A program made the translations under genes and the position numbers. Of a stretch of 64,000 bases of DNA, positions 6,310-20,792 are shown one piece after another. Position 1 is the first letter of the stretch; every line of letters begins with the position of its first letter. Source of the stretch: a virus (taxonomy: Duplodnaviria; Caudoviricetes); the IMG/VR virus record IMGVR_UViG_3300020047_005985, positions 32,001 through 96,000 of that record; one strand, written 5' to 3'. Below the pieces are notes generated by a model, which did no database searches, had not been told where the DNA came from, and worked only from the letters and a program-made list of their open reading frames with translations.

Positions 6310-6834
6310 TTATTTTTTAGTTGCTTTCTTTGGTTTAACAGCTTCACTTGTTTCTCCAAAGAATGTATTTTGTTTTTGTTGCCGTTCCCAAAGACTATCA
6401 GGAGTAGCTTCTGTAAGAACAGTGTGAAAAGCATGAATCTTTTCCTGCCACCATGCTACTACTTCTGGTTTTTCTGGATCACCTCTACGGCCAATTTCTC
6501 CAAAGATTGCGTAAGTCAATCCTACCAAAGCAGTATCTGATAAACTTTCAACAATCACGCTAAATTTTGGATTTGGCGGAATAGCAGATTTAATCTGACG
6601 AATTAAATCTGTAACTTCAGGATTTGATTTCCTAAAGTAATTTATTCCTGCTTGAGTTGGAATATAGTTTCCAGTTGAATCAGTAGTTACCAATTCTTTT
6701 GAGAGAAGTTCTTCTGCAATCCCTTTCATATCTCTACTCTCATCTGCTACCCAACTTGAAAAATCTTTGTTTGGGTGAGTATTGGACAATATATGGTATA
6801 AAGTCCACTGCGCTTTTAAACTAATTTTGCTCAT
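6310..6834 (-). CDS. hypothetical protein, possible N-terminal winged helix
   Basis: EELLSKELV...YIPTQAG.NYF pattern. Confidence 0.7.
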   Translation of the reverse strand: MSKISLKAQWTLYHILSNTHPNKDFSSWVADESRDMKGIAEELLSKELVTTDSTGNYIPTQAGINYFRKSNPEVTDLIRQIKSAIPPNPKFSVIVESLSDTALVGLTYAIFGEIGRRGDPEKPEVVAWWQEKIHAFHTVLTEATPDSLWERQQKQNTFFGETSEAVKPKKATKK

Positions 6835-6997
6835 ATATATTAATTATTTTTACAACTTAAATTGCAGTCTGCAACTGTTTTACAATTTCTTTTACACCCC
6901 CAACTAGAAGAATAAAAAATTGATATTGCAAGATGATGTTCTTGCTTAAAAAATGATAATCCTATAGGTTTTTTCATTATTGCAAATTTAAAAATTA

Positions 6998-7068
6998 GGT
7001 GACTAACAAGAATCGAACTTGCACTGTTGGAACCACAAACCAACGTTCTACCGTTAAACTATAGTCAC
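6998..7068 (-). tRNA. trnH: tRNA-His(GUG)
   Basis: Cloverleaf GTGACTA/TAGTCAC, discriminator C, loop TTGTGGT. Confidence 0.85.
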
Positions 7069-7070
7069 AG

Positions 7071-7144
7071 TGGAAGAAGTTAGATTCGAACTAACAACCA
7101 CAGAATGATGGAATCTGCTGCTCTACCAATTGGCATACACTCCC
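7071..7144 (-). pseudogene. tRNA-like element with 9-nt anticodon loop (Trp-like)
   Basis: Stem GCAGA/TCTGT around TTCCATCAT; intact T arm; weak acceptor stem. Confidence 0.7.
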
Positions 7145-7202
7145 AGTAGTTTCCTGCTACATATACCCTAGTAAACAGGAAACTTTTGTAATTACTCGCA
7201 TT

Positions 7203-7317
7203 CATCTGTTTTTATACTTAAATTCAATGCTCTACCACTGAGCTATACGTCCGTAGTTAAATAAGTAATAGAGGACGTAAGAAGAATTGAACTTCTGACC
7301 TTGAGTTAGAACAGATG
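7203..7317 (-). ncRNA. circularly permuted tRNA-like RNA (YrlA/Y-RNA-like topology)
   Basis: tRNA 3' half (7305-7273) precedes 5' half (7252-7223); 7-bp acceptor closed by a 20-nt loop; ends paired by CATCTGTT/AACAGATG. Confidence 0.85.
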
Positions 7318-7329
7318 GCTTTCAAAGAT

Positions 7330-7407
7330 GACTAAAACTAAAGCTTGACTCACAAAACTATCTACTAAAAGTAAATACCATCATTTTGTAAGACTAATGC
7401 TAAAGTT
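7330..7407 (-). repeat. UAG-rich repeats CTTTAGnnTTAGTC
   Basis: Two near-identical copies (7330-7346, 7392-7407) and a degenerate middle copy; 7 UAG triplets in about 70 nt. Confidence 0.6.
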
Positions 7408-7424
7408 ATAAAGAGTCAATATTC

Positions 7425-8180
7425 TTAAAATAGAAATTCAAGTACCTTGTTTCCAAGATCAGATTCTTGACTTTCTATTGTATTTGCATTTTCTAAAGCT
7501 GCAATAACAGCTTTATATAAATTATCATATTTGGCTAAAATAATAGCTCGTTGACGAGTTGTGTACTCCCCTGAGTATTCTTGAGCTGTATAGGAACCAA
7601 TATTTACTTGCGTAGATTTTTCACCTACAATTGGCTGACGACTTTTATCTGGATGCGGATCAACTAAAATATAACTTTCCTTAATTGTGGTTTTTGAAAA
7701 ACCTTCATCAATTGGACTTTCATAAATCTCACGTCCCTCATGTTCTCCATTTGTTGATTCTTTCCAGATTACAGATTCTTTTCTGATTGGAAGTTCATGA
7801 ATCAAACTTTTAATTTTACCGTCCAAAATAGACTTGAGTCTTAAAAGTTCCAGGGTAGTGTAAGTTCCCCAATTTTTTCCATCTACAACTAAATCAGAAG
7901 TTACTCCTGTTGCATTTGTTTTTTCAATACTGAATACAATATTGAAATAATCTTGAACATGAGTTTTAAACCAACTTAATTGTTCTCCAACAGTTGAAGC
8001 AACTGCTTCATATCCACGCTTACTAGGTTCATCTGCATACCCATCAATAGGAGTATATGTTTTTTGATAACCTTTAAATAATCCTTGTTTGTTTTTGAAT
8101 TTACTGAACATATCATCCAGCATTAAACTAAATCCTTTTTCCACCTTATCTCTAAGGCCAAGTTGTACGGCTAATTTCAT
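7425..8180 (-). CDS. conserved hypothetical protein upstream of permuted tRNA-like RNA
   Basis: 251-aa ORF with LF.G..KTY.P and A.E.AN motifs, helical N- and C-termini. Confidence 0.85.
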   Translation of the reverse strand: MKLAVQLGLRDKVEKGFSLMLDDMFSKFKNKQGLFKGYQKTYTPIDGYADEPSKRGYEAVASTVGEQLSWFKTHVQDYFNIVFSIEKTNATGVTSDLVVDGKNWGTYTTLELLRLKSILDGKIKSLIHELPIRKESVIWKESTNGEHEGREIYESPIDEGFSKTTIKESYILVDPHPDKSRQPIVGEKSTQVNIGSYTAQEYSGEYTTRQRAIILAKYDNLYKAVIAALENANTIESQESDLGNKVLEFLF

Positions 8181-8205
8181 TACTAAAGTTTAAATATTAT
8201 TGTAG

Positions 8206-8288
8206 TAGGGAGAGAGGGACTCGAACCCTCAAAGTCTAATGACCAAAGGGGCTTAAGCCCTTCGTGTTTACCATTTCACCACCTCCCC
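8206..8288 (-). tRNA. trnL: tRNA-Leu(UAA)
   Basis: AAGGG CT TAA GC CCCTT, long variable arm, canonical T arm. Confidence 0.9.
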
Positions 8289-8376
8289 ATTATCTGTCTT
8301 TCCAGACTGTCACCATACGAAGTACTCTACCAAATTGATGTCTTTCCAACCTGTAAGACTCTTGCTATATTGACTC

Positions 8377-8595
8377 TAGCTATACTATATGGGTTTCTGG
8401 AATCGAACCAGTTTTATCTGGATGCGCTATTTTATCATTCTCTTTTAGGTTTCGCCATCTTGCACTTGTACTCAAGTTCCTAAAATCATTTGGGAATGAC
8501 CCAACCACTTCTTAGAACAATGGGATGTTTTCTACCATCTTTCCTTCAGACCTCTCTCAACTGAAGATTGTATAGTTTAGCTATACTCTATATGG
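8377..8595 (-). ncRNA. candidate structured RNA ending in a T-loop-like hairpin, flanked by direct repeats
   Basis: Six short hairpins plus CTGG TTCGATT CCAG; repeats tagctatact(ct)atatgg at both ends. Confidence 0.5.
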
Positions 8596-8606
8596 ATTAT
8601 TTGGTT

Positions 8607-8981
8607 TTAGGCTACTTCTTCAACACCAACACCTTGTAAAGCAAGGGCCTCGGCGAAATTGAAATCAAAATCACTTGCTGTTGCACGAACTGCGGATGTC
8701 AAAGGACTAATTGAAATAATTGGTTCTGTTGGGCGTGCCTCCGTAATTGTCACATTGCAAAGATATTCATTTCCTACTGAAATTCCTTTTTCAAGGTTTT
8801 TCATGTAGCAAATAGCAGAACGTTCAACTATTTCACCTTTATTATTGGTGAATTTCACAGCACCAACAACATACTCCTTACCGTTAACGTTTGTTTGTAC
8901 AGCTTCTCCAAGAGAAGTTACTGTAGCTTTGAATTGACCTTCAAATTGATTGAGTTCTGAATTGAATGTTAGATTGAACAT
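8607..8981 (-). CDS. hypothetical protein, possibly OB-fold ssDNA-binding
   Basis: Beta-rich 124 aa with acidic C-terminus. Confidence 0.65.
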   Translation of the reverse strand: MFNLTFNSELNQFEGQFKATVTSLGEAVQTNVNGKEYVVGAVKFTNNKGEIVERSAICYMKNLEKGISVGNEYLCNVTITEARPTEPIISISPLTSAVRATASDFDFNFAEALALQGVGVEEVA

Positions 8982-9012
8982 TTTAATTGAATTTATTAGT
9001 GAATTTATTAAT

Positions 9013-9351
9013 TTATAGTGTTTTTATGAACTGAGAATATTCTTCCAATTCTTTTATTTTTGTTTCTCGAATCTTTGGTTCATTAAAAGTTTTTAAGTGT
9101 CCTAATGCACATTTCATATCTTGATTTTGAAGCATACAAATTCTACTTACTAACCATCTTTGATTTCTAACTTTTCTTAATTCTTCTACAAACTTACGAC
9201 TACTTTTAGGTAGTTTTTCATTTTGTAAAAGATGAACCAACATTTGAAACTTTTCTTCCTCAAGTCTATGTTGATTTTCCCAATACTCTTTATGAGTATA
9301 AAATTCTTTTAATCCTTCAAAGATTTTAATAATTTCTTCTGTTGTTTGCAT
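9013..9351 (-). CDS. hypothetical protein
   Basis: 112-aa helical ORF. Confidence 0.7.
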   Translation of the reverse strand: MQTTEEIIKIFEGLKEFYTHKEYWENQHRLEEEKFQMLVHLLQNEKLPKSSRKFVEELRKVRNQRWLVSRICMLQNQDMKCALGHLKTFNEPKIRETKIKELEEYSQFIKTL

Positions 9352-10046
9352 TTTTTTTTCTTTCTTCCGTGATAATTTTCTCCTTTAAAACTATTTTCAT
9401 CAAATCCAGCTTGATCTCTTTTTAAGATATCTAATGCTTTTTGTTCTAATAGTTTTTCTTTTTGTTTTAATAACGCATTATTAAAAATATCCAGAGATTT
9501 TTGTTTCTGTAGTTTTTTATTAATACGATTATTTTGTTTAGATTCAGCTTGCTGTTTCCAAACAAGTTTTTTGTATAAAGGATCTTTTCTAGATTTAAAT
9601 TCTAAAACAGATCCATCATAAGATCTTTCATATTCATTTTCATTCCAAGGACGAATGTATGTAACCCATTTAAATTGTTTATGAATCCACTTTACCTTAT
9701 AATCTTTAGAATAAACTTTATACGACGATTTTATATTATATTGTCTTTTAGGTTTACAAATATTACCTTGACTATCAATAGAATAACTAAAGACGTAAAA
9801 ACTTGAATTATTATCAAATTCGTCTAAAAATAAATATTGCTGATATTTTGGAACTTGTTTACAATAATAACGAAAGGCCATATCAAATGATTTTCCAATA
9901 TTATTATATATAATACGTCGAATTCTTTTCCAAGTATTTATTCCTCCTACAGGATGACAATCACCGTAACTGTATGCATACCAAACGTCAGATCTACGCA
10001 TGGGTTCCTTAAAAGGAAGCTGTTCCAAATAATTAAAATTTATCAT
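9309..10046 (-). CDS. hypothetical basic protein
   Basis: 245-aa ORF. Confidence 0.75.
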   Translation of the reverse strand: MINFNYLEQLPFKEPMRRSDVWYAYSYGDCHPVGGINTWKRIRRIIYNNIGKSFDMAFRYYCKQVPKYQQYLFLDEFDNNSSFYVFSYSIDSQGNICKPKRQYNIKSSYKVYSKDYKVKWIHKQFKWVTYIRPWNENEYERSYDGSVLEFKSRKDPLYKKLVWKQQAESKQNNRINKKLQKQKSLDIFNNALLKQKEKLLEQKALDILKRDQAGFDENSFKGENYHGRKKKKCKQQKKLLKSLKD

Positions 10047-10063
10047 AATAATTTAAATTTGAG

Positions 10064-10150
10064 CGGAGAACTAGAGAATCGAACTCTAACCGTGATTAAG
10101 CTGACTAACTTAGTAGATCAAAGTAACAAATCAATATTTACCTGCTCTCC
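10064..10150 (-). pseudogene. degenerate tRNA-Ser (anticodon ACU)
   Basis: Acceptor GGAGAGC/GTTCTCC with G73, good T arm; D arm and anticodon stem decayed; loop CT ACT AA. Confidence 0.65.
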
Positions 10151-10205
10151 AAAACTAGACTCTACCAACCTCCAAATTAATTTTGATAATATAAATCATG
10201 TTAGT

Positions 10206-10415
10206 TTAAGTTTTTAATATATCGTTATCATACATTGAAACGATAGTCTGTATCACCGTATCTAATGAATCTTTAATTATAACTGAATCAATTAAAGAAA
10301 ACCGAATAGCATACTTACCAGAACAAGTCACTATAAACCCAACAGGAACATTTCTTTCTAGACATGTTTCGGAAAAATGTTGTAACGCAATGGAAAGTTT
10401 ACCAATTGTATTCAT
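10206..10415 (-). CDS. hypothetical protein
   Basis: 69-aa ORF between tRNA genes. Confidence 0.6.
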   Translation of the reverse strand: MNTIGKLSIALQHFSETCLERNVPVGFIVTCSGKYAIRFSLIDSVIIKDSLDTVIQTIVSMYDNDILKT

Positions 10416-10446
10416 TATTTCTTAATTAAAAAAATCTTATAAAATT

Positions 10447-10535
10447 TGGCGGAAGGCAAGGGAGTCCAACCCTTACAACGTTTTACCGTCCTAGCACTTT
10501 TCAAGAGTGTGTACCTCAGTCAACTGGGGCCTTCC
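10447..10535 (-). tRNA. trnS: tRNA-Ser(UGA), atypical D and T loops
   Basis: GGAAGGC/GCCTTCC G CCA, loop CT TGA AA, long variable arm, T loop TTGGACT. Confidence 0.8.
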
Positions 10536-10760
10536 TATATTTAAAAATTAATCCTGTCCAGTTTCAGTCTGGAATAGAATTAATATAGTTTGATCTTACT
10601 TCAATAGCTTCTTGTTCAGTATTATATCTACCTAAAGATTTGCGCTGCATGATTTATATATTCGTTTCATTCCCTCGCAATAAAATATAAGTTGTTTCTC
10701 TAATTAGAAAGTACAACTTATAAAACTTTACTTATCCCTCGATATCACTGTCAGGATAAA

Positions 10761-11051
10761 TTATACTTCTACTGGAAATAGCTGTCTAAAATACATAGAC
10801 GCTACTTCTAGGCCAGATTCAAATCCTGCCAATTTATTTTTGGCATCTATAATACCTTGTAAATCAGCATTACGAATAGCCTGAGCCAATTCTTGTTGCG
10901 CTTTAGCAATACTTGCTTTTGTAGTAGCAATGCTAATTTCCCACTCTGATTTCTTGGTTTGAACTTTTAATAGCCGCTCCTCGAACAGGAGATCCTCTAT
11001 CGAGGCTGATAGTGAATCCAAATATGATTGGACTGCTTGTGCTTTCGCCAT
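10761..11051 (-). CDS. coiled-coil hypothetical protein
   Basis: 96 aa, Ala-rich heptads. Confidence 0.75.
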   Translation of the reverse strand: MAKAQAVQSYLDSLSASIEDLLFEERLLKVQTKKSEWEISIATTKASIAKAQQELAQAIRNADLQGIIDAKNKLAGFESGLEVASMYFRQLFPVEV

Positions 11052-11778
11052 TATTTATTATATTTAAATTGTTAGAATTTGTTTCTTCAGGAGATACTTT
11101 TTTAAGCATATTTCTAGTCCAGTTTACACAATATTCATTATTATTGAAATGTACCATCTTCGATCCATGATTAAACTCATTTTTTGAACAAGACCTTACA
11201 TTAGTAATTTTAAATTTTAATCCTATGTAAGCTATTCCATCAAAGAATCCAGCATCATCATTTTTGGCTATTACCTCAACAGTATCTCCTATCCAAATAT
11301 CATCTGAATCATTTTTTGATATAGATTGTTCTTTTAAATGACTTATATTTTTAACTCCAGCAAAAAAGTGTCCAAAAGAGTAATCTTTTCTTTTACCATG
11401 TGTGAGATCGTTTGTACTTGCTCCGTGTCCTTCAGTAAATAATTCTGAAAAAATTAAAACAGAATTATCATGAATATTAAACCCAATAATTTCAAAAATT
11501 AAATGAGGGAACCTAACATGATTTACTTTATCTCCAATTTTAAATCCACATATTTCTTCTTGAGGATACTTTTCAAAGAATATATCAAATTGTTTTTTAG
11601 TAAGAACTTTTTCCCAAAAAAGATCTCCCTCTATTGTTTGCCACCAATTAAAGCCATCTTTATATTTATCTGAATATATATCATAATCGAAAACATTAGG
11701 AGAATATTTTCTTCCTTGCTCTTCAACTCTTTCTTTTACTTTATTTTGTATTTCTATTGGGAAGTCTGAAAATTTCAT
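10933..11778 (-). CDS. hypothetical protein with SH3/KOW-like repeats
   Basis: FKIGDKV and WIGDTV.V motifs. Confidence 0.8.
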   Translation of the reverse strand: MKFSDFPIEIQNKVKERVEEQGRKYSPNVFDYDIYSDKYKDGFNWWQTIEGDLFWEKVLTKKQFDIFFEKYPQEEICGFKIGDKVNHVRFPHLIFEIIGFNIHDNSVLIFSELFTEGHGASTNDLTHGKRKDYSFGHFFAGVKNISHLKEQSISKNDSDDIWIGDTVEVIAKNDDAGFFDGIAYIGLKFKITNVRSCSKNEFNHGSKMVHFNNNEYCVNWTRNMLKKVSPEETNSNNLNIINNGESTSSPIIFGFTISLDRGSPVRGAAIKSSNQEIRVGN

Positions 11779-11876
11779 AATATTTTATTTTTAAATCTGA
11801 TAAACAATAGGGACACGGATAACCGTTAATCCATCCTGTATTATTACATGGTTTACACATATTACTTTGATTTTTG

Positions 11877-11948
11877 TGACCCCAAGAGGGATCGAACCTC
11901 TATCTAGGGATTAGAAATCCCTTGCTCTATCCATTGAGCTATAAGGCC
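11877..11948 (-). tRNA. trnR: tRNA-Arg(UCU)
   Basis: AGGGA TT TCT AA TCCCT cloverleaf. Confidence 0.92.
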
Positions 11949-11956
11949 TTGTATTG

Positions 11957-12028
11957 TAGCGAGTGAGAGAATCGAACTCTCATGAATAGGTCGAAAACCT
12001 ACTATCCTAACCATTAGATGAACCCGCC
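11957..12028 (-). tRNA. trnE: tRNA-Glu(UUC)
   Basis: GTAGG TT TTC GA CCTAT cloverleaf. Confidence 0.9.
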
Positions 12029-12107
12029 AAAAATAGCTATCTAAAACTCAATTACTTGAGAAACTTCGCTATTTTAGTTTTTTACTACGCGTTTATGTAG
12101 TTTTAAT

Positions 12108-12231
12108 TTAGTTAGACAGGATTCGATACCTGCACACAACTACTTCACTTCTGATACCATAACAGGACTTATCGTTGGGCATTTTCATTGCTATCATCCT
12201 CTGGTTAGCGTCTATCTTCCGCCACTAACTA
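12108..12231 (-). ncRNA. tRNA-like RNA with ~70-nt insert replacing the anticodon arm
   Basis: Acceptor TAGTTAG/CTAACTA, Leu-type D arm TGGCGGAA..TAGACGC, T arm GCAGG TATCGAAT CCTGT. Confidence 0.75.
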
Positions 12232-12239
12232 ATTTAAAG

Positions 12240-12614
12240 TTACTTCAACATTGCTTTTAACTCATCTGCTGACATTGCTTCCAATTCAGCATCTTGTTTT
12301 CGAGCAATTAAATCCATAATTTTTTGATTGTGGATTTTATTTGCAGCAGCAGCTTGAGTTTCTTCTTGTTCTTTGATACGAGTATCAAGAATAGATGTTA
12401 CAATGGCAAGCCGCAATTCGTTTGCTTCTTGTTCTTTGGTCTTACGACCAGCCTTACGACGAGTAGATTTACCATAACCTTCTATGGTTTCAGTTAATTG
12501 CTCTTCATGAGTAACTAACATATCGAGATTAATATCCCACAATTGTTCGCAGGAAATAACCCCTCCTAAATGAAAACGGAGTTTAAGCCGTGAGGCTAAT
12601 TCAAATATATTCAT
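12240..12614 (-). CDS. conserved phage protein (MNIFE.A.R.KLRF type), coiled-coil
   Basis: 124 aa, coupled to the upstream 721-aa gene. Confidence 0.85.
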   Translation of the reverse strand: MNIFELASRLKLRFHLGGVISCEQLWDINLDMLVTHEEQLTETIEGYGKSTRRKAGRKTKEQEANELRLAIVTSILDTRIKEQEETQAAAANKIHNQKIMDLIARKQDAELEAMSADELKAMLK

Positions 12615-12615
12615 T

Positions 12616-14781
12616 TTAAAATTTTATTTTAATTGTTCGTTTATGACTACCTGATAACTTCAATATTAACTCCTCGGAAATAGTCGAATTAAAACCCAAT
12701 CCACACAACTGTTTAGTTGCTGGTTCAAGTTTTGTAGTTTCACCTAATACTTCCATTACTTTACGATGTTCTAATAAATCAGAATTTAAGAACTCCGTAT
12801 GAAATGAACGTAAAGCAATATCAGATTTACAATTATCAAGCATAAACATGTAATGTTTGTTGCCTGTATTATTATCACCCCAAAAGTTAGGAGATAAGCA
12901 AACCAAGTTGACTTTATGGAATTGATTGGTATCAAGATTCCAAATCTTCGTAGAAGCAGATTGTGATTCTAAAATCTGACAATTATTTAAATCAGGAATA
13001 AATTCTACTTGTCCATTTTTACACAACAGTTTTCCCAATTCAACTGTTCCTTTATGACTAGCCTTAACAAATAAAGATGTGATTTCCCCAAGTATTTCAA
13101 CTTCAGCCGTAAAATCTGTTCGAACAGTCGGTCCACTATAATTATGAACAAACAATCTGTATTCACCATTTGGCATAACAGAAAGATTTGAATATGTCAA
13201 ATTTTCTACACGTTTTTCAGGTGGAAAATGACCATCACATCCTTGAGCATCCAAATCCAACATTCCTGATGATGGTTGCATACTACGTCTATTACTATAG
13301 TAAATTTCATTACCATTAGGCTCTTTACAATGTAAGTCGTAATCAGATGTTGTTTTTGGAAAGTGAATACTTACTCGAATAGGAGCTTCAATTTTACCAC
13401 CTCGATCTTTAACAGCATCTTTAATCATACTTTTACCTGCAAGATTACCATTATAAGTCCAACCAAAATTGTTAGACCATTTAAATGCTTTCTTACTGTC
13501 AGGATTATTTGCCGTATGCAATGCTACTAAGTTACCACTAAATCTATTTTCAAGAAAAGCTTCAATTGAAGCGCATGTTGGAAGAATATCCTTCATAAAC
13601 TTTTCAATAGAAACTTCTTCAATACCATCAAATTGACTACGTTTATGTTGAGTAGATGTAGATGGTGCAACTTTATCAAATACAGATGCTTGTTTAATAG
13701 TATCTGTGCCTACATTTTGGTGAAGAATTTCTGAGATGTTAATATCATCTAATGTAGAGAACCTACGATCAAATGATTCTTCGTATCCATTTTCTTCAAC
13801 AAACTTTTTAGCTTCCGCAATTTGTTTTTGACTAATAGGAGCAGTAGCTTTCATGTAATTAGCAGGATCAACTCGCTTATTCCATGTAAGTACAGCCTTA
13901 TTCAAATCTTCCCCCTGTGTTAATTCTACACAAAGAGTTCCAATTAATTCATTTCTAAATTTAGCAAATGGTAGATTGTTGGATTTAATCCAACACCAAT
14001 TATCCTTCTCTTTAGTTGGTACATCTTTGTATTCAGTTGCAAACTCAATAAACTTTTTAAGCTTATCTAAGTATGAATCACCATTCAACAAACTACCTTG
14101 TTGAATCAAATCACGCACTAACACTAATGTATCCAATGAAATTTCATCAAGACCTCTTTTGAATACATTTTTAGCATCACGATGATTACCTTGAATAGAT
14201 TCAACTGAGTTACTAGAAAAATCTACAAACTTTTTAGGAAGTATAGCATTAAAATGATAAAATGTATATACTTGACCTGGAGTAACTACACCAAATTTGT
14301 CAGCTTCTTCCTGAGTATAAATTTTGTTGCTTTTTTCAAAGCCTAATTTATATTCAGCTTGAGTTTTATTTGTAGATTCATAATTTAATAGTCTATTGAG
14401 AGTATCGTATGATTCTACAAATACATTTTCAATTGGATTATTCTTTAAAAGAAATGCTACATTGTTTGCAGGGCGAGAGTAAATATTATCAGACAGATCT
14501 ACTGTATCAAACATTGTTACAATCTCACCATTGACTAAAGCTACAATGTTACCATAACGATGAATAAAATTCTTGTCATGATTACATGTATGTTCAGTAG
14601 AATTTGGATCTCTGAATACAGGATCAGCTTCTTTAGTGAAACTTGAGATATACTTATCCCAAACTTCATGTCCAGAAATTTTAGATCTGAATAAAACAGG
14701 TTGTTCACACATAAATGCAAACTGCTGTTTAATTGCTTTGTTAAACTCTTGAAATTTCATATTTCGTTGACAGTACTGCAC
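12616..14781 (-). CDS. large conserved phage protein with YfaP/DUF2135-like domain
   Basis: DYDLH..EPNG..IYY...G.LD.D...VEN.......G.Y...VHNY motif; likely start MKFQ at 14760. Confidence 0.85.
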   Translation of the reverse strand: MQYCQRNMKFQEFNKAIKQQFAFMCEQPVLFRSKISGHEVWDKYISSFTKEADPVFRDPNSTEHTCNHDKNFIHRYGNIVALVNGEIVTMFDTVDLSDNIYSRPANNVAFLLKNNPIENVFVESYDTLNRLLNYESTNKTQAEYKLGFEKSNKIYTQEEADKFGVVTPGQVYTFYHFNAILPKKFVDFSSNSVESIQGNHRDAKNVFKRGLDEISLDTLVLVRDLIQQGSLLNGDSYLDKLKKFIEFATEYKDVPTKEKDNWCWIKSNNLPFAKFRNELIGTLCVELTQGEDLNKAVLTWNKRVDPANYMKATAPISQKQIAEAKKFVEENGYEESFDRRFSTLDDINISEILHQNVGTDTIKQASVFDKVAPSTSTQHKRSQFDGIEEVSIEKFMKDILPTCASIEAFLENRFSGNLVALHTANNPDSKKAFKWSNNFGWTYNGNLAGKSMIKDAVKDRGGKIEAPIRVSIHFPKTTSDYDLHCKEPNGNEIYYSNRRSMQPSSGMLDLDAQGCDGHFPPEKRVENLTYSNLSVMPNGEYRLFVHNYSGPTVRTDFTAEVEILGEITSLFVKASHKGTVELGKLLCKNGQVEFIPDLNNCQILESQSASTKIWNLDTNQFHKVNLVCLSPNFWGDNNTGNKHYMFMLDNCKSDIALRSFHTEFLNSDLLEHRKVMEVLGETTKLEPATKQLCGLGFNSTISEELILKLSGSHKRTIKIKF

Positions 14782-14852
14782 ACCTTACTGGTTTAGGTTT
14801 AATAATTCTCTATGTGCAACTTGAGAATTTTACTATTGGTATTTTAAAATAG

Positions 14853-14925
14853 TCAGGATGGATTGACTCGAACAACCGACCTCTTGCGTCCAATGCAAGC
14901 TATCTACCAACTGATATACATCCTG
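14853..14925 (-). tRNA. trnP: tRNA-Pro(UGG)
   Basis: CTTGC AT TGG AC GCAAG; C1-G72, A73. Confidence 0.9.
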
Positions 14926-15056
14926 GAATTATGGGTATTCCAACCCACGCATTTAACTTGTTTTACATCAAAGATCTTTTGCCTGTAAAGCCTTTAGGAG
15001 CTTTCTGGTGCTAAATGTAAAACCTCGTTGCTTATTTTTTAAAATCTTAAAATTAG

Positions 15057-15207
15057 TAAGGGCAACTGGACTTGAACCAATAACCTCTGTCTAGTTCGGC
15101 AACTCCGGCAGGACTCTAACCTGCAACCTTCAGACCTGAGCCTGACGCTCTAACAATTGAGCTACGGAGTCAATGACAGCGCTCTATCCAAATTGAGCTA
15201 TACCCTT
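15057..15207 (-). ncRNA. outer tRNA whose anticodon loop contains a second tRNA
   Basis: Acceptor AAGGGTA/TGCCCTT, D stem GCTC/GAGC, anticodon stem CTGTC/GACAG, T arm ATTGG TTCAAGT CCAGT. Confidence 0.85.
15100..15171 (-). ncRNA. inner nested tRNA-like element with 6-nt anticodon loop
   Basis: GACTCCG/CGGAGTT, GCTC/GAGC, TCAGG CTCAGG TCTGA, GCAGG TTAGAGT CCTGC. Confidence 0.85.
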
Positions 15208-15298
15208 GTTTTCTTAATTAACTCCAGAGGATTTCTCCTATCTTGCACCACACATAAAAGTGTACTCGTTACTACTGGATATCTTTAATTAAGATTTG

Positions 15299-15370
15299 TT
15301 GACCCACTAGGATTCGAACCTAGAACCTTCGGCTTAAAAGGCCGATGCTCTACCATTGAGCTATAGGTCA
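15299..15370 (-). tRNA. trnK: tRNA-Lys(UUU)
   Basis: TCGGC CT TTT AA GCCGA cloverleaf. Confidence 0.93.
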
Positions 15371-15608
15371 TTTTAGAATACCACTTAGGAAATCACCCTT
15401 TAGAAAAGACTTAGTGGCACGCCTTTAATTCCTTTACGTAGAATCAACGATTGTTTATTGGAAAAACAATAAAAATCCTCCAGCTTCACATGGCTGGCAC
15501 ACGCGATATTTATTTAACCGTTAAATATCTAAATCCGTTTATCTAGAATAAACTTAAGGAGTTAATCCGTTTAACTATACGACTATTTAACTCATAGTTG
15601 AGGATTTG

Positions 15609-15681
15609 TGGTGAGAGTTGGACTTGAACCAACGACTTTCGGCTTTTCAAACCGATACTCTACCAACTGAGTTACCTCACC
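15609..15681 (-). tRNA. trnF: tRNA-Phe(GAA)
   Basis: TCGGT TT GAA AA GCCGA cloverleaf. Confidence 0.92.
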
Positions 15682-20484: not shown

Positions 20485-20792
20485 AATACTTTTTATTTTT
20501 TGAATAATTGCCTACTCTTTTGAAGGATTTTTGGCATACTCCTTATAAACCCTCTGCACTCTGTTATAATCATCAATGATTTCATTCCTATCAATTAAGA
20601 TGGTGTATTAATTTCAACTATAGATTATAACAGCTTACCAGGGACTAGTGGGAATTAGAGTTAATAGGCAAAACACCCAATAAGAGTGACAAATCCTATT
20701 TACCTGCACTTCCGCAAGTGGAGATATTTGTTGCGGTATTTTTAAACATCAGATCAACGAGTATTATTGTCTCTATTGATCTTAAACTGGTG

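What the first reader, a model, noticed from the sequence alone, without database searches (positions are those of the whole stretch)
6998..15681. Array of tRNA mimics that keep the acceptor and elbow but alter the anticodon arm
Seen: beside 8 plausible tRNAs there are at least five tRNA-shaped elements: permuted (7203), 9-nt loop (7071), decayed Ser (10064), 70-nt insert (12108) and nested (15057). Acceptor and T stems mostly remain paired while the anticodon region is disrupted in a different way each time. Known: host anticodon nucleases target tRNAs during infection, and RNase P reads the elbow and acceptor. Inference: a repertoire of decoys or tRNA-scaffolded RNAs under selection rather than simple decay.
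Basis: inference. Interest (0 to 1): 0.72.

Follow-up and report, generated by a model that had tools for sequence, protein, structure and literature searches.

The report
Conserved non-decoding tRNA look-alikes in phage
All five tRNA-shaped oddities in this phage's tRNA gene cluster are real. Three belong to two conserved RNA families (a back-to-front tRNA mimic next to an unstudied protein gene, and a tRNA nested inside another tRNA), while the other two are tRNA-derived with no sign of conservation.

Summary
The window lies in a complete 108-kb, 30% GC phage genome. Its minus-strand tRNA island holds 7 ordinary tRNAs and the five odd elements, at the stated coordinates. A strict tRNA-frame descriptor hits 8 times there, against 0.06 per shuffled window.

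The five are not one phenomenon.
- **DUF7873-linked locus (7203 and 7071).** The permuted element and the 9-nt-loop tRNA are two parts of one conserved RNA locus: a YrlA-like permuted tRNA head, a hairpin with a GGAUAU-type loop, and an anticodon-less tRNA. It follows a DUF7873 gene in about 30 phage contigs and in Bacteroidota chromosomes. Stems not used for detection covary, and so does the 19:56 elbow pair.
- **Nested tRNA (15057).** It has five relatives near homologues of the 721-aa neighbour gene. In them 98% of pair cells are paired and 30 of 42 pairs changed on both sides. The inner tRNA ends in CCA, unlike ordinary tRNA genes here.
- **10064 and 12108.** Both are tRNA-derived, but I found no homologue. 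Their D loops or T loops are damaged, so decay cannot be excluded.

Selection is therefore supported for three of five. The anticodon-nuclease decoy idea has no support. The closest known family is YrlA/Ro60, but no Ro60 gene is present.

This scan had already met both families on other DNA. I found neither in the papers I could search.

The parts
6998..7068 (-). tRNA-His(GUG), ordinary; directly follows the DUF7873-linked RNA locus
   Evidence: ARAGORN; Rfam tRNA 60.9 bits
7071..7144 (-). It has a discriminator A, a D loop with GG and a canonical T loop. It is the third part of the DUF7873-linked RNA locus.
   Evidence: Rfam tRNA 34.7 bits with a 9-nt loop. Counterparts at the same position lie about 85-100 nt after the permuted head in most relatives, with middle regions of variable length.
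7149..7183 (-). 8-bp hairpin whose loop carries a variant (GGGUAUAU) of the conserved GAAGGAUAUUGA-type loop motif
   Evidence: Sequence. In relatives the stem sequences differ but stay paired, and most loops keep GGAUAU-like letters.
7184..7353 (-). YrlA-like RNA with a circularly permuted tRNA head (core 7223-7305). Order: 5' box, outer helix, anticodon-stem 3' strand, T arm, acceptor 3' strand + U73 + CUA, 20-nt linker, acceptor 5' strand, D arm, anticodon-stem 5' strand, UUUAAGU, outer helix, UGAAU. The RNA may start right after the gene's stop codon at about 7424.
   Evidence: YrlA RF02553 33.7 bits against a gathering score of 69. Descriptor hits downstream of DUF7873 in 24 of 27 viral loci. 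RNAalifold covariation. Anticodon-stem and outer-helix permutation tests. Compensated stems in the 85%-identical relative L121.
7425..8180 (-). DUF7873 gene (251 aa), the conserved protein neighbour of the RNA locus
   Evidence: Pfam PF25283, E 2e-33. More than 210 homologues. AF2 model pLDDT 87.5 with no convincing PDB fold match.
8205..8288 (-). tRNA-Leu(UAA), ordinary; anticodon loop CUUAAGC
10063..10150 (-). Degenerate Ser-like tRNA-derived element: acceptor 7/7 pairs, canonical T arm, weak D arm without GG, no canonical anticodon arm. A longer alternative frame runs to 10173.
   Evidence: Relaxed ARAGORN 'Ser(act)'. Descriptor hit. No Rfam tRNA hit at E<=10. Fold z = -2.08 and not a cloverleaf. 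No homologue found.
11876..12028 (-). tRNA-Arg(UCU) 11876-11948 and tRNA-Glu(UUC) 11956-12028, ordinary
12108..12231 (-). tRNA-derived element with a middle region of about 70 nt: acceptor 7/7 pairs, a 3-bp D stem of the Leu/Tyr (type II) kind with no GG in its loop, and an 8-nt T loop (UAUCGAAU). It starts 9 nt after the phrog_2018 gene.
   Evidence: Sequence. Descriptor hit. No Rfam tRNA hit at E<=10. Fold z = -0.03. No homologue found.
12240..14781 (-). Conserved gene pair phrog_2018 (12240-12614) and phrog_1735 (721 aa, 12616-14781). The nested tRNAs of all six phages lie beside homologues of the 721-aa gene.
   Evidence: PHROGs; loci; positions of nested hits
14852..14925 (-). tRNA-Pro(UGG), ordinary
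15057..15207 (-). Nested tRNA. The outer cloverleaf has all four stems paired and carries 83 nt in place of its anticodon loop: AUU + inner tRNA + G + CCG + AACUA.
   Evidence: Sequence; descriptor; model R1 at 175.8 bits plus five relatives at 87-174 bits; pair counts
15100..15171 (-). Inner tRNA-like of the nested pair: 6-nt anticodon loop CUCAGG, elbow pair U19:A56 in place of G19:C56, followed by CCG
   Evidence: ARAGORN 'tRNA-???'; Rfam tRNA 57.6 bits; alignment
15298..15681 (-). tRNA-Lys(UUU) 15298-15370 and tRNA-Phe(GAA) 15608-15681, ordinary

Best explanation
The 'array' is a mixture of three things inside one co-oriented phage tRNA island.

**A. A self-contained protein-plus-RNA locus (7071-8180).** A DUF7873 gene is followed by a structured RNA of about 350 nt. 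Its core is a circularly permuted tRNA look-alike in YrlA/Y-RNA topology. A hairpin with a conserved loop comes next, then a second tRNA-shaped module without a usable anticodon.
- Shown: the locus is conserved, covaries and keeps a tRNA-like elbow.
- Inferred: both tRNA-like acceptor ends are cut by the tRNA processing enzymes (RNase P at the 5' side, 3' processing and CCA addition after U73 or A73), as shown for Mycobacterium smegmatis YrlA. This would give a two-piece RNA held together by its helices.
- Inferred: the RNA works with DUF7873 as a Ro60-independent particle that uses tRNA shape to engage tRNA-binding factors.

**B. A conserved nested pair (15057-15207).** A CCA-ended, non-decoding tRNA-like RNA occupies the anticodon loop of a second cloverleaf, next to the 721-aa gene.
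- Shown: the architecture recurs with compensatory changes in all eight helices.
- Inferred: RNase P releases or opens it at the inner 5' end, and the encoded CCA marks a ready-made 3' end. Neither the inner nor the outer RNA decodes.

**C. Two tRNA-derived singletons (10063-10150, 12108-12231).** Both have damaged D or T loops, and no sign of conservation was found. They are most simply decaying or fast-evolving tRNA gene copies.
For: **A. The DUF7873-linked locus.**
- Synteny. A permuted head lies 100-400 nt downstream of DUF7873 in 24 of 27 IMG/VR loci. It is also in metagenome relatives L116, L118-L122 and in 17 of 26 GTDB Bacteroidota genomes.
- Covariation in stems not required by the descriptor. 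The anticodon stem has 4.31 of 5 pairs in its own sequence against 2.55 when halves are crossed between sequences, with 0 of 5000 permutations reaching that. For the outer helix, 0 of 300 permutations reach the observed value.
- RNAalifold finds 20 of 23 pairs with changes on both sides.
- The closest relative (85% protein identity) keeps the flanks but replaces the T, acceptor and outer stems with compensated pairs.
- Elbow pair. The 3 heads with U56 have GA in the D loop where the other 26, all with C56, have GG.
- The linker starts with U + C in 27 of 29 heads. This resembles the N73 + C-A/U-A trailers of most of this phage's ordinary tRNA genes.
- The order head, hairpin, odd tRNA is conserved.
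- M. smegmatis YrlA, which has a 7-bp acceptor, is cut by RNase P and receives CCA in vivo (PMC4201824).

**B. The nested pair.**
- Six full-length matches to model R1.
- 98.4% of pair cells are paired and 30 of 42 pairs changed on both sides. None of 500 shuffles reaches this, and slid controls give 29-48%.
- The inner tRNA is followed by N73 + CCA in 5 of 6.

**C. The singletons.** Descriptor hits far exceed chance, but there are no homologues, and fold z is -0.03 and -2.08.
Against: - There are no transcript, processing, binding or aminoacylation data.
- DUF7873 has no recognisable fold or motif, so its binding to the RNA rests on gene adjacency alone.
- The A4 alignment is fitted to the model, which inflates pairing. 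Only six nested sequences were found, among roughly 138 loci holding the 721-aa gene, so the distribution is sporadic.
- Acceptor, T and D stems of the permuted heads were required by my descriptor, so their perfect pairing is partly circular.
- The closest relative for the 721-aa gene (L124, 68%) has no nested tRNA within 2.5 kb.
- For 10064 and 12108, absence of homologues may only reflect the lack of close relatives in the collections.
Confidence: 0.6

Rival explanations
1. Simple decay: all five elements are dying tRNA genes or debris from rearrangements in a fast-evolving tRNA island.
For: 10064 and 12108 have no detectable homologues, have damaged D or T loops and fall below Rfam tRNA at E<=10. 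Relatives carry many tRNA genes with odd or expanded anticodon loops.
Against: The permuted head, the odd tRNA and the nested pair recur across phages whose neighbouring proteins are only 28-58% identical. Their stems are compensated and the 19:56 tertiary pair covaries. Neutral debris would not keep 42 of 42 pairs in six lineages.
Confidence: 0.12
2. Decoys, the first reader's idea: the elements soak up host tRNA-targeting defence nucleases such as PrrC, RloC or PARIS, or toxins that read the acceptor or elbow.
For: Phage tRNAs are known to counter tRNA-cleaving defences (PMC10264068 and PMC11555353, listed). The genome has an ORF of the RNA_ligase family, PF09414. A related DUF7873 phage contig pairs that ligase with a metallophosphoesterase, which suggests tRNA repair capacity. 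The ordinary tRNAs here (Lys UUU, Glu UUC, Arg UCU, Leu UAA) are typical nuclease targets (own knowledge).
Against: Anticodon nucleases read the anticodon loop, which is exactly what is missing or replaced. The DUF7873 locus also stands alone among ordinary chromosomal genes in Bacteroidota. No PADLOC family matched any neighbouring protein. Nothing was tested.
Confidence: 0.12
3. Processing punctuation: the tRNA shapes serve only as RNase P / RNase Z cutting signals that divide a long island transcript into mRNAs and tRNAs.
For: All elements are co-oriented with the flanking genes and sit in intergenic gaps. 12108 begins 9 nt after a stop codon. tRNA-type trailers follow most acceptor 3' strands.
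Against: RNase P needs little more than an acceptor/T minihelix (own knowledge). Here D arms, anticodon stems, the 19:56 pair, an outer helix and sequence boxes are conserved too. The DUF7873 locus is a single gene plus RNA in bacterial chromosomes, where nothing needs separating.
Confidence: 0.15
4. tRNA-shaped intron, for the nested pair: RNase P and 3' processing excise the inner tRNA, and a phage RNA ligase rejoins the outer halves into a working tRNA.
For: RNase P and RNase Z leave 3'-OH and 5'-phosphate ends that an ATP-dependent RNA ligase could join directly (own knowledge). A PF09414 ligase-family ORF exists. Four of the six 3' remnants contain AC at a place consistent with a Val-type anticodon. 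Earlier scan notes proposed the same reading on other DNA.
Against: The loop letters left after removing the inner tRNA and CCA number 8, 7, 3, 6 and 7 in the five pairs I could read. They do not give a common 7-nt loop with U33. No joined form was looked for.
Confidence: 0.1
5. Selfish cassette, for the nested pair: a mobile tRNA gene, perhaps copied from a mature CCA-ended tRNA, inserted into another tRNA gene. The outer shell is wreckage.
For: The inner tRNA alone carries an encoded CCA, while the ordinary genes do not. The distribution is sporadic, 6 of about 138 loci. Earlier scan notes describe replacement-tRNA cassettes in Patescibacteria.
Against: The inner tRNA does not decode: its loops are 6-7 nt long and differ in every member. 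It therefore replaces nothing. The outer stems are kept by changes on both sides in all six members, including all 5 pairs of the outer anticodon stem, which is not expected for wreckage.
Confidence: 0.1

Closest known systems
YrlA-type bacterial and phage Y RNAs bound by Ro60/Rsr (Rfam RF02553; Chen et al. 2014, PMC4201824)
   Same: Same topology: T arm, acceptor-like stem-loop and D arm, closed by a helix formed from the 5' and 3' parts. tRNA-like tertiary pairs are present. A purine-rich 5' box (N-Y-GAAAG) resembles GNCGAAN0-1G. The 7-bp acceptor matches the M. smegmatis YrlA that RNase P cuts and that receives CCA. The Rfam model gives the only sub-threshold hits.
   Different: No Ro60/TROVE gene is in the phage or in the gene tables of related loci. 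The constant neighbour is DUF7873 instead. Scores are half the gathering score. The linker is long (17-85 nt) and starts with U-C-N-A. An anticodon-loop-like UUUAAGY segment, a hairpin with a conserved loop and a second tRNA-like module are added.
Circularly permuted tRNA genes of Cyanidioschyzon merolae and two-piece (permuted) tmRNA genes (own knowledge; reviews listed)
   Same: The 3' half of the tRNA shape is encoded before the 5' half, with an intervening segment at the acceptor end that processing could remove.
   Different: There is no bulge-helix-bulge junction and no reconstituted 7-nt anticodon loop. The acceptor lacks G3:U70, there is no tag reading frame, and ARAGORN finds no tmRNA. 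The hosts are bacteria and lack the archaeal/eukaryal splicing endonuclease (own knowledge).
Group I introns in bacterial and phage tRNA anticodon loops
   Same: A foreign structured RNA interrupts the anticodon loop of a tRNA gene. This genome does carry group I introns elsewhere according to earlier notes.
   Different: The insert is 72-76 nt and tRNA-shaped, too short for a group I core. No intron family hit lies in the island. The flanking remnants do not restore a loop.
Phage tRNAs that evade anticodon nucleases through anticodon-loop mutations (PMC10264068; PMC11555353)
   Same: These are phage-encoded tRNA-shaped genes whose differences from host tRNAs concentrate in the anticodon loop.
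   Different: Those tRNAs keep a 7-nt decoding loop and work in translation. The elements here have 6-nt or 9-nt loops, an opened loop, or a whole tRNA in place of the loop.

Membership tests
YrlA (RF02553) | tRNA-like module in the order T arm, acceptor-like stem-loop, D arm, closed by a terminal helix | tested here: met
   cmscan alignment over model positions 1-114; descriptor and RNAalifold results
YrlA (RF02553) | Score at or above Rfam's gathering threshold (69 bits) | tested here: not met
   33.7 bits in the window; 37.4 and 34.3 bits in L116 and L121
YrlA (RF02553) | Encoded within about 4 kb of, and on the same strand as, a Ro60/TROVE gene (criterion of Chen et al. 2014) | tested here: not met
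   No PF05731 match in the complete 108-kb genome, while the control genomes did match. No TROVE in the gene tables of L116-L120 and L231-L233.
YrlA (RF02553) | GNCGAAN0-1G motif near the 5' end (presumed Ro60 contact) | tested here: inconclusive
   A box N-Y-GAAAG-Y-CA precedes the outer helix. It matches the motif exactly only in L091 (GACGAAAG); the window has UUUGAAAG.
YrlA (RF02553) | Cleavage by RNase P and CCA addition at a 7-bp acceptor stem (M. smegmatis type) | not testable with these tools
   The 7-bp stem and a tRNA-type trailer are present. No RNA data.
Decoding tRNA (RF00005 plus a canonical anticodon loop) | Cloverleaf scoring above 29 bits with a 7-nt anticodon loop | tested here: not met
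   7071: 34.7 bits but a 9-nt loop. Inner nested: 57.6 bits but a 6-nt loop, called '???' by ARAGORN. 10064 and 12108: no hit at E<=10. The permuted head cannot match.
Two-piece (permuted) tmRNA | G3:U70 alanine identity, a tag reading frame, and detection by ARAGORN -m | tested here: not met
   ARAGORN -m finds no tmRNA in the genome. The acceptor's third pair is A:U in the window and variable elsewhere.
Permuted tRNA gene giving a working tRNA (C. merolae type) | The ends join to restore a 7-nt anticodon loop, and the junction forms a bulge-helix-bulge | tested here: inconclusive
   A UUUAAGY segment like the Leu(UAA) loop follows the anticodon-stem 5' strand in close relatives. It is followed by 6+ extra nt and an outer helix, and it is replaced by longer segments in distant members. 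No RNA data on joining.
Group I intron in a tRNA anticodon loop | Insert of 200 nt or more with a P3-P8 core that matches Intron_gpI | tested here: not met
   The insert is 76 nt and is itself a cloverleaf. No intron hit between 6000 and 17000 at E<=10.
Nuclease-evading phage tRNA (van den Berg et al. 2023) | A functional tRNA with a 7-nt loop carrying substitutions at the nuclease recognition positions | tested here: not met
   Loops are 6 nt, 9 nt, opened or replaced.

The most novel reading that the evidence does not exclude
Phage tRNA islands of this Bacteroidota-phage group carry a toolkit of selected, non-decoding tRNA-shaped RNAs.
- One is a Ro60-independent, Y-RNA-like particle built with DUF7873.
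- The other is a CCA-ended tRNA that sits as a tRNA-shaped insert inside another tRNA. The cell's own tRNA processing enzymes would cut it out, and the phage's RNA ligase might rejoin the halves.

Together with the phage's ligase, kinase and phosphoesterase genes, these would form an RNA repair or counter-defence module that works through tRNA shape rather than through decoding.
Probability: 0.12. Interest if true: 0.9.

Novelty: new variant of a known kind. Interest (0 to 1): 0.68.

Why it matters
- **Annotation.** tRNA finders either drop these elements or label them pseudo-tRNAs, so phage and bacterial annotations hide them.
- **A new partner for a Y-RNA-like RNA.** A YrlA-like RNA without Ro60, tied instead to a protein of unknown fold across Bacteroidota and their phages, would be a new partner for a known RNA architecture. 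It offers a tractable system, because an isolate, Xanthocytophaga flavus NT2B1, carries the locus.
- **A clean processing test.** A conserved tRNA nested in a tRNA tests what RNase P, 3' processing and RNA ligases do with a tRNA-shaped insert.
- **What the tRNA shape is used for.** Both families show that selection can maintain the tRNA L-shape, including its 19:56 elbow pair, with no decoding function. This bears on what else reads the tRNA shape in infected cells.

Tried and rejected
- **No close relative in the phage collection.** blastn of 6800-12200 against 50,697 phage records gave only short tRNA-Arg matches.
- **YrlA hits covering only model positions 26-82.** In relatives these turned out to be junctions between neighbouring ordinary tRNAs, so I dropped them.
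- **Genes absent from the genome.** No TROVE, RtcB or T4 Rnl1 family match. The Rnl1 control matched nowhere, so that search is uninformative.
- **DUF7873.** No PADLOC or PHROG function, no PDB fold (Foldseek best E 9e-3; VIA best Z 6.1, a helical-bundle level), no PDB sequence relative, no informative Atlas neighbour and no paper.
- **The 721-aa protein.** The only hint is a TerD-like beta-sandwich at E 1e-3, which gives no RNA link.
- **Homologues of 10064 and 12108.** I tried blastn against all fetched loci, neighbour-protein searches in IMG/VR, and the regions downstream of the phrog_2018 gene. Nothing was found.
- **The L116 motif.** The hairpin + ACAGCAA motif repeated inside L116's tRNA-like genes is not enriched in this window: 18 matches against 12 expected.
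- **Pattern scan of IMG/VR for CCA-ended nested tRNAs.** It gave 14 loci, mostly ordinary tandem tRNAs. None matched the nested model in full.
- **Promoter and terminator scan.** Results were at chance level, and the scan does not cover Bacteroidota promoters.
- **Possible pseudoknot.** Pairing between the 5' box (GCUU) and the AAGY of the loop-like segment looked suggestive in five close relatives. I did not test it properly and do not claim it.


Full report
**Setting.** The window is bases 32001-96000 of a complete 108,241-bp virus record with terminal repeats, about 30% G+C. All tRNA genes of the genome lie in the window, on the minus strand between 6998 and 15681. DUF7873 homologues closest to the phage's copy are in Cytophagales and other Bacteroidota, so the host is probably a member of that phylum.

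**Observation.** ARAGORN and Rfam agree on seven ordinary tRNAs: His, Leu-UAA, Arg-UCU, Glu-UUC, Pro, Lys-UUU and Phe. They also report an eighth hit, 15100-15171, with a 6-nt anticodon loop.

A strict tRNA-frame descriptor (T stem 5/5, TTCGA-type loop, acceptor 7/7, a D stem) hits eight times. All hits are on the minus strand inside the island, and they include 10064 and 12108. One hundred dinucleotide shuffles of the window average 0.06 hits. All five are therefore tRNA-derived and not chance.

Two qualifications apply:
- 12108 has no GG in its D loop and has an 8-nt T loop.
- 10064 has a degenerate D arm. Rfam's tRNA model finds neither of these two elements even at E<=10.

For these two the elbow is not kept.

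**The permuted element and the 9-nt-loop tRNA belong to one conserved locus.** The permuted element gave a sub-threshold match to YrlA, the bacterial Y-RNA-like family (33.7 bits against a gathering score of 69). The gene just upstream, 7425-8180, is a DUF7873 protein.

In a distant phage (28% protein identity) the same gene is again followed by permuted tRNA-like elements. I then collected DUF7873 loci from several sources:
- **IMG/VR:** a descriptor that demands only a T arm, a 7-bp acceptor interrupted by a linker, and a D stem finds a permuted head 100-400 nt downstream in 24 of 27 loci.
- **Metagenome relatives at 67-85% identity:** every locus with enough downstream sequence has a head.
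- **GTDB Bacteroidota genomes:** 17 of 26 have one, among them the isolate Xanthocytophaga flavus NT2B1 and a closed Cyclobacteriaceae chromosome.

In bacterial chromosomes the gene plus RNA stands alone among unrelated metabolic or envelope genes. The locus is therefore self-contained and not phage-specific.

**Evidence of selection on the structure.** Three helices were required by my descriptor, so I tested features that were not.
- The anticodon-stem equivalent has 4.31 of 5 pairs when each sequence's own halves are combined, and 2.55 when halves are crossed between sequences. None of 5000 permutations reaches the observed mean.
- A further outer helix also exceeds all 300 permutations.
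- RNAalifold on 17 sequences recovers the outer helix, T arm, acceptor and D arm, with both-sided changes at 20 of 23 pairs.
- The closest relative (85% protein identity) keeps the flanking boxes nearly unchanged, but every stem of the head is replaced by a different, still complementary sequence. Examples are T arm AGAAG/CUUCU to GUUGG/CCAAC, acceptor UACGUCC/GGACGUA to AUUCUCC/GGAGAAU, and outer helix CAUCUGU/ACAGAUG to CACCUAU/AUAGGUG.
- The tertiary elbow pair covaries. The three heads with U at T-loop position 56 have GA where the other 26, all with C56, have GG in the D loop.

Downstream, the order is conserved. After the head comes a G+C-rich hairpin whose stem sequence differs from locus to locus while its loop keeps a GAAGGAUAUUGA-like motif. 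A tRNA-shaped module follows, with discriminator A. Its D arm has a 3-bp stem and an AAUUGGUA-type loop, as in Leu and Tyr tRNAs. Its middle region varies from about 20 to 90 nt. Window 7071-7144 is this module, not a decayed tRNA.

**Likely processing (inference).** In 27 of 29 heads the acceptor 3' strand is followed by U then C, usually UCUA or UCAA. Most ordinary tRNA genes of this phage likewise have N73 followed by C-A/U-A rather than CCA. The permuted head thus carries a tRNA-type 3' trailer.

Chen et al. showed that M. smegmatis YrlA, the one YrlA with a 7-bp acceptor stem, is cut by RNase P in vitro and is cleaved and given CCA in vivo (PMC4201824). All heads here have 7 bp. I therefore expect RNase P and 3' processing to remove the linker. 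That would leave a two-piece RNA held by the acceptor, anticodon-stem and outer helices. This is inference only.

DUF7873 folds confidently (pLDDT 87.5) but resembles nothing solved. Its role as the RNA's partner rests on adjacency alone.

**The nested tRNA is also a family.** The outer cloverleaf, 15057-15207, has 7, 4, 5 and 5 paired positions in its four stems. In place of an anticodon loop it carries 83 nt: AUU, a 71-nt cloverleaf, then G-CCG-AACUA.

A scan of the fetched loci found the same thing in L006, also with an 83-nt loop. A covariance model built from the two recovered four more full-length examples in metagenome contigs, scoring 87-102 bits against about 50 bits for single tRNAs. 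All six lie within about 0-800 nt of a homologue of the 721-aa gene: upstream in two and downstream in four.

On the six-sequence alignment, 98.4% of pair cells are paired. Thirty of 42 pairs have changes on both sides, and none of 500 shuffles reaches this. Sliding the partners by one to three columns drops pairing to 29-48%. The alignment is model-fitted, which favours pairing, but the contrast is large.

Three details stand out:
- The inner tRNA is followed by N73 + CCA in five of six (CCG in the window), whereas ordinary genes here lack CCA.
- The inner anticodon loops differ in every member, 6 or 7 nt long with no common anticodon. The inner anticodon stem nevertheless shows both-sided changes at all five pairs.
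- The 19:56 elbow pair is U:A in the window's inner tRNA, A:U in L006's inner tRNA and in L164's outer tRNA, and G:C elsewhere.

The letters left in the outer loop after removing the inner tRNA and CCA number 8, 7, 3, 6 and 7 in the five pairs I could read. They do not restore a common 7-nt loop. I therefore rate the 'tRNA-shaped intron' reading as possible but not favoured.

The nested form is sporadic. It occurs in six of roughly 138 loci holding the 721-aa gene, and it is absent from the closest relative, L124.

**The two singletons.** I found no homologue of 10064 or 12108 by blastn, by neighbour-gene searches or downstream of phrog_2018 homologues. Their predicted folds are no more stable, or only slightly more stable, than shuffles (z = -0.03 and -2.08).

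Relatives do carry analogous objects, such as tRNA-like genes with a D arm of the Leu/Tyr type and long middles, and tRNAs with 8-12-nt or much larger anticodon loops. The class is therefore common in this phage group. Orthology with the window's two elements is not shown. Decay and fast evolution remain equally open.

**Comparison with what is known.** The permuted RNA works like YrlA in shape, but it fails membership on score and on the Ro60 neighbour. No TROVE gene is in the genome, while the control genomes did match. It is not a tmRNA, not a group I intron and not a nuclease-evading decoding tRNA.

The papers I could search hold nothing on DUF7873 and no described tRNA-in-tRNA arrangement.

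**Earlier notes of this scan.** Notes on other genomes describe both the DUF7873-linked tRNA-mimic RNA (often with two permuted heads) and tRNAs nested in tRNAs, including a CCA-ended one in phages. My results agree with those notes. They add the tripartite order in this clade and the six-member nested family tied to the 721-aa gene.

**Verdict.** The mechanism remains inferred. The decisive data are RNA ends, RNase P cleavage and DUF7873 binding.

Noticed in passing
window 20509-20544 (-): Rfam DUF805b RNA motif above its gathering score (42.4 against 35.6 bits), outside the tRNA island.
   Followed up: no
window 12616-14781 (-): The 721-aa phrog_1735 protein is conserved in more than 130 phage and metagenome loci and is always followed by phrog_2018. 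Its AF2 model (pLDDT 83) gives only a weak TerD-like beta-sandwich match (E 1e-3). tRNA or tRNA-like genes often flank this gene pair.
   Followed up: partly
L116:4600-6820: In a 70%-related phage contig, at least five tRNA-like frames each carry, in the anticodon region, a short hairpin followed by ACAGCAA or ACUGCAA. This looks like a repeated insertion or intron-like element. The motif is not enriched in this window.
   Followed up: partly
L091:4235-4462 and L015:2506-2599: Lys-like tRNAs whose loop reads CUUU...UAA are interrupted. In L091 the insert is 155 nt and holds a tRNA-like gene with a D arm of the Leu/Tyr type. In L015 the insert is 20 nt.
   Followed up: no
L005:12113-12190: A tRNA with a 12-nt loop AUCCA+UUUACAA: a canonical Val(UAC) loop preceded by five extra letters ending in CCA. 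It may be a nested tRNA that lost its inner gene.
   Followed up: no
L118:11030-11145 versus L119: In a Bacteroidota chromosome, a perfect inverted-repeat element that looks like a miniature transposon sits between the hairpin and the odd tRNA of the DUF7873 locus. The sister assembly lacks it. In these bacterial copies the hairpin is followed by a U run, like a terminator.
   Followed up: no
G000:C1:26307-26762 (-), outside the window: A 431-aa open frame matches the RNA_ligase family PF09414 (36.9 bits). A related DUF7873 phage contig (L231) has the same family next to a metallophosphoesterase and HNH genes.
   Followed up: partly
window 6998-15681 (-): Six of the seven ordinary tRNA genes, and the outer nested tRNA, have the discriminator followed by C-A/U-A (CAA or CUA). 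None has an encoded CCA. tRNA-His is followed by UAA instead.
   Followed up: partly
L015:11907-12180: A tRNA frame with a 207-nt insert in the anticodon loop, possibly a small group I intron.
   Followed up: no
window 15480-15497 (-): The only terminator-like hairpin plus U run inside the tRNA cluster lies between tRNA-Phe and tRNA-Lys.
   Followed up: no
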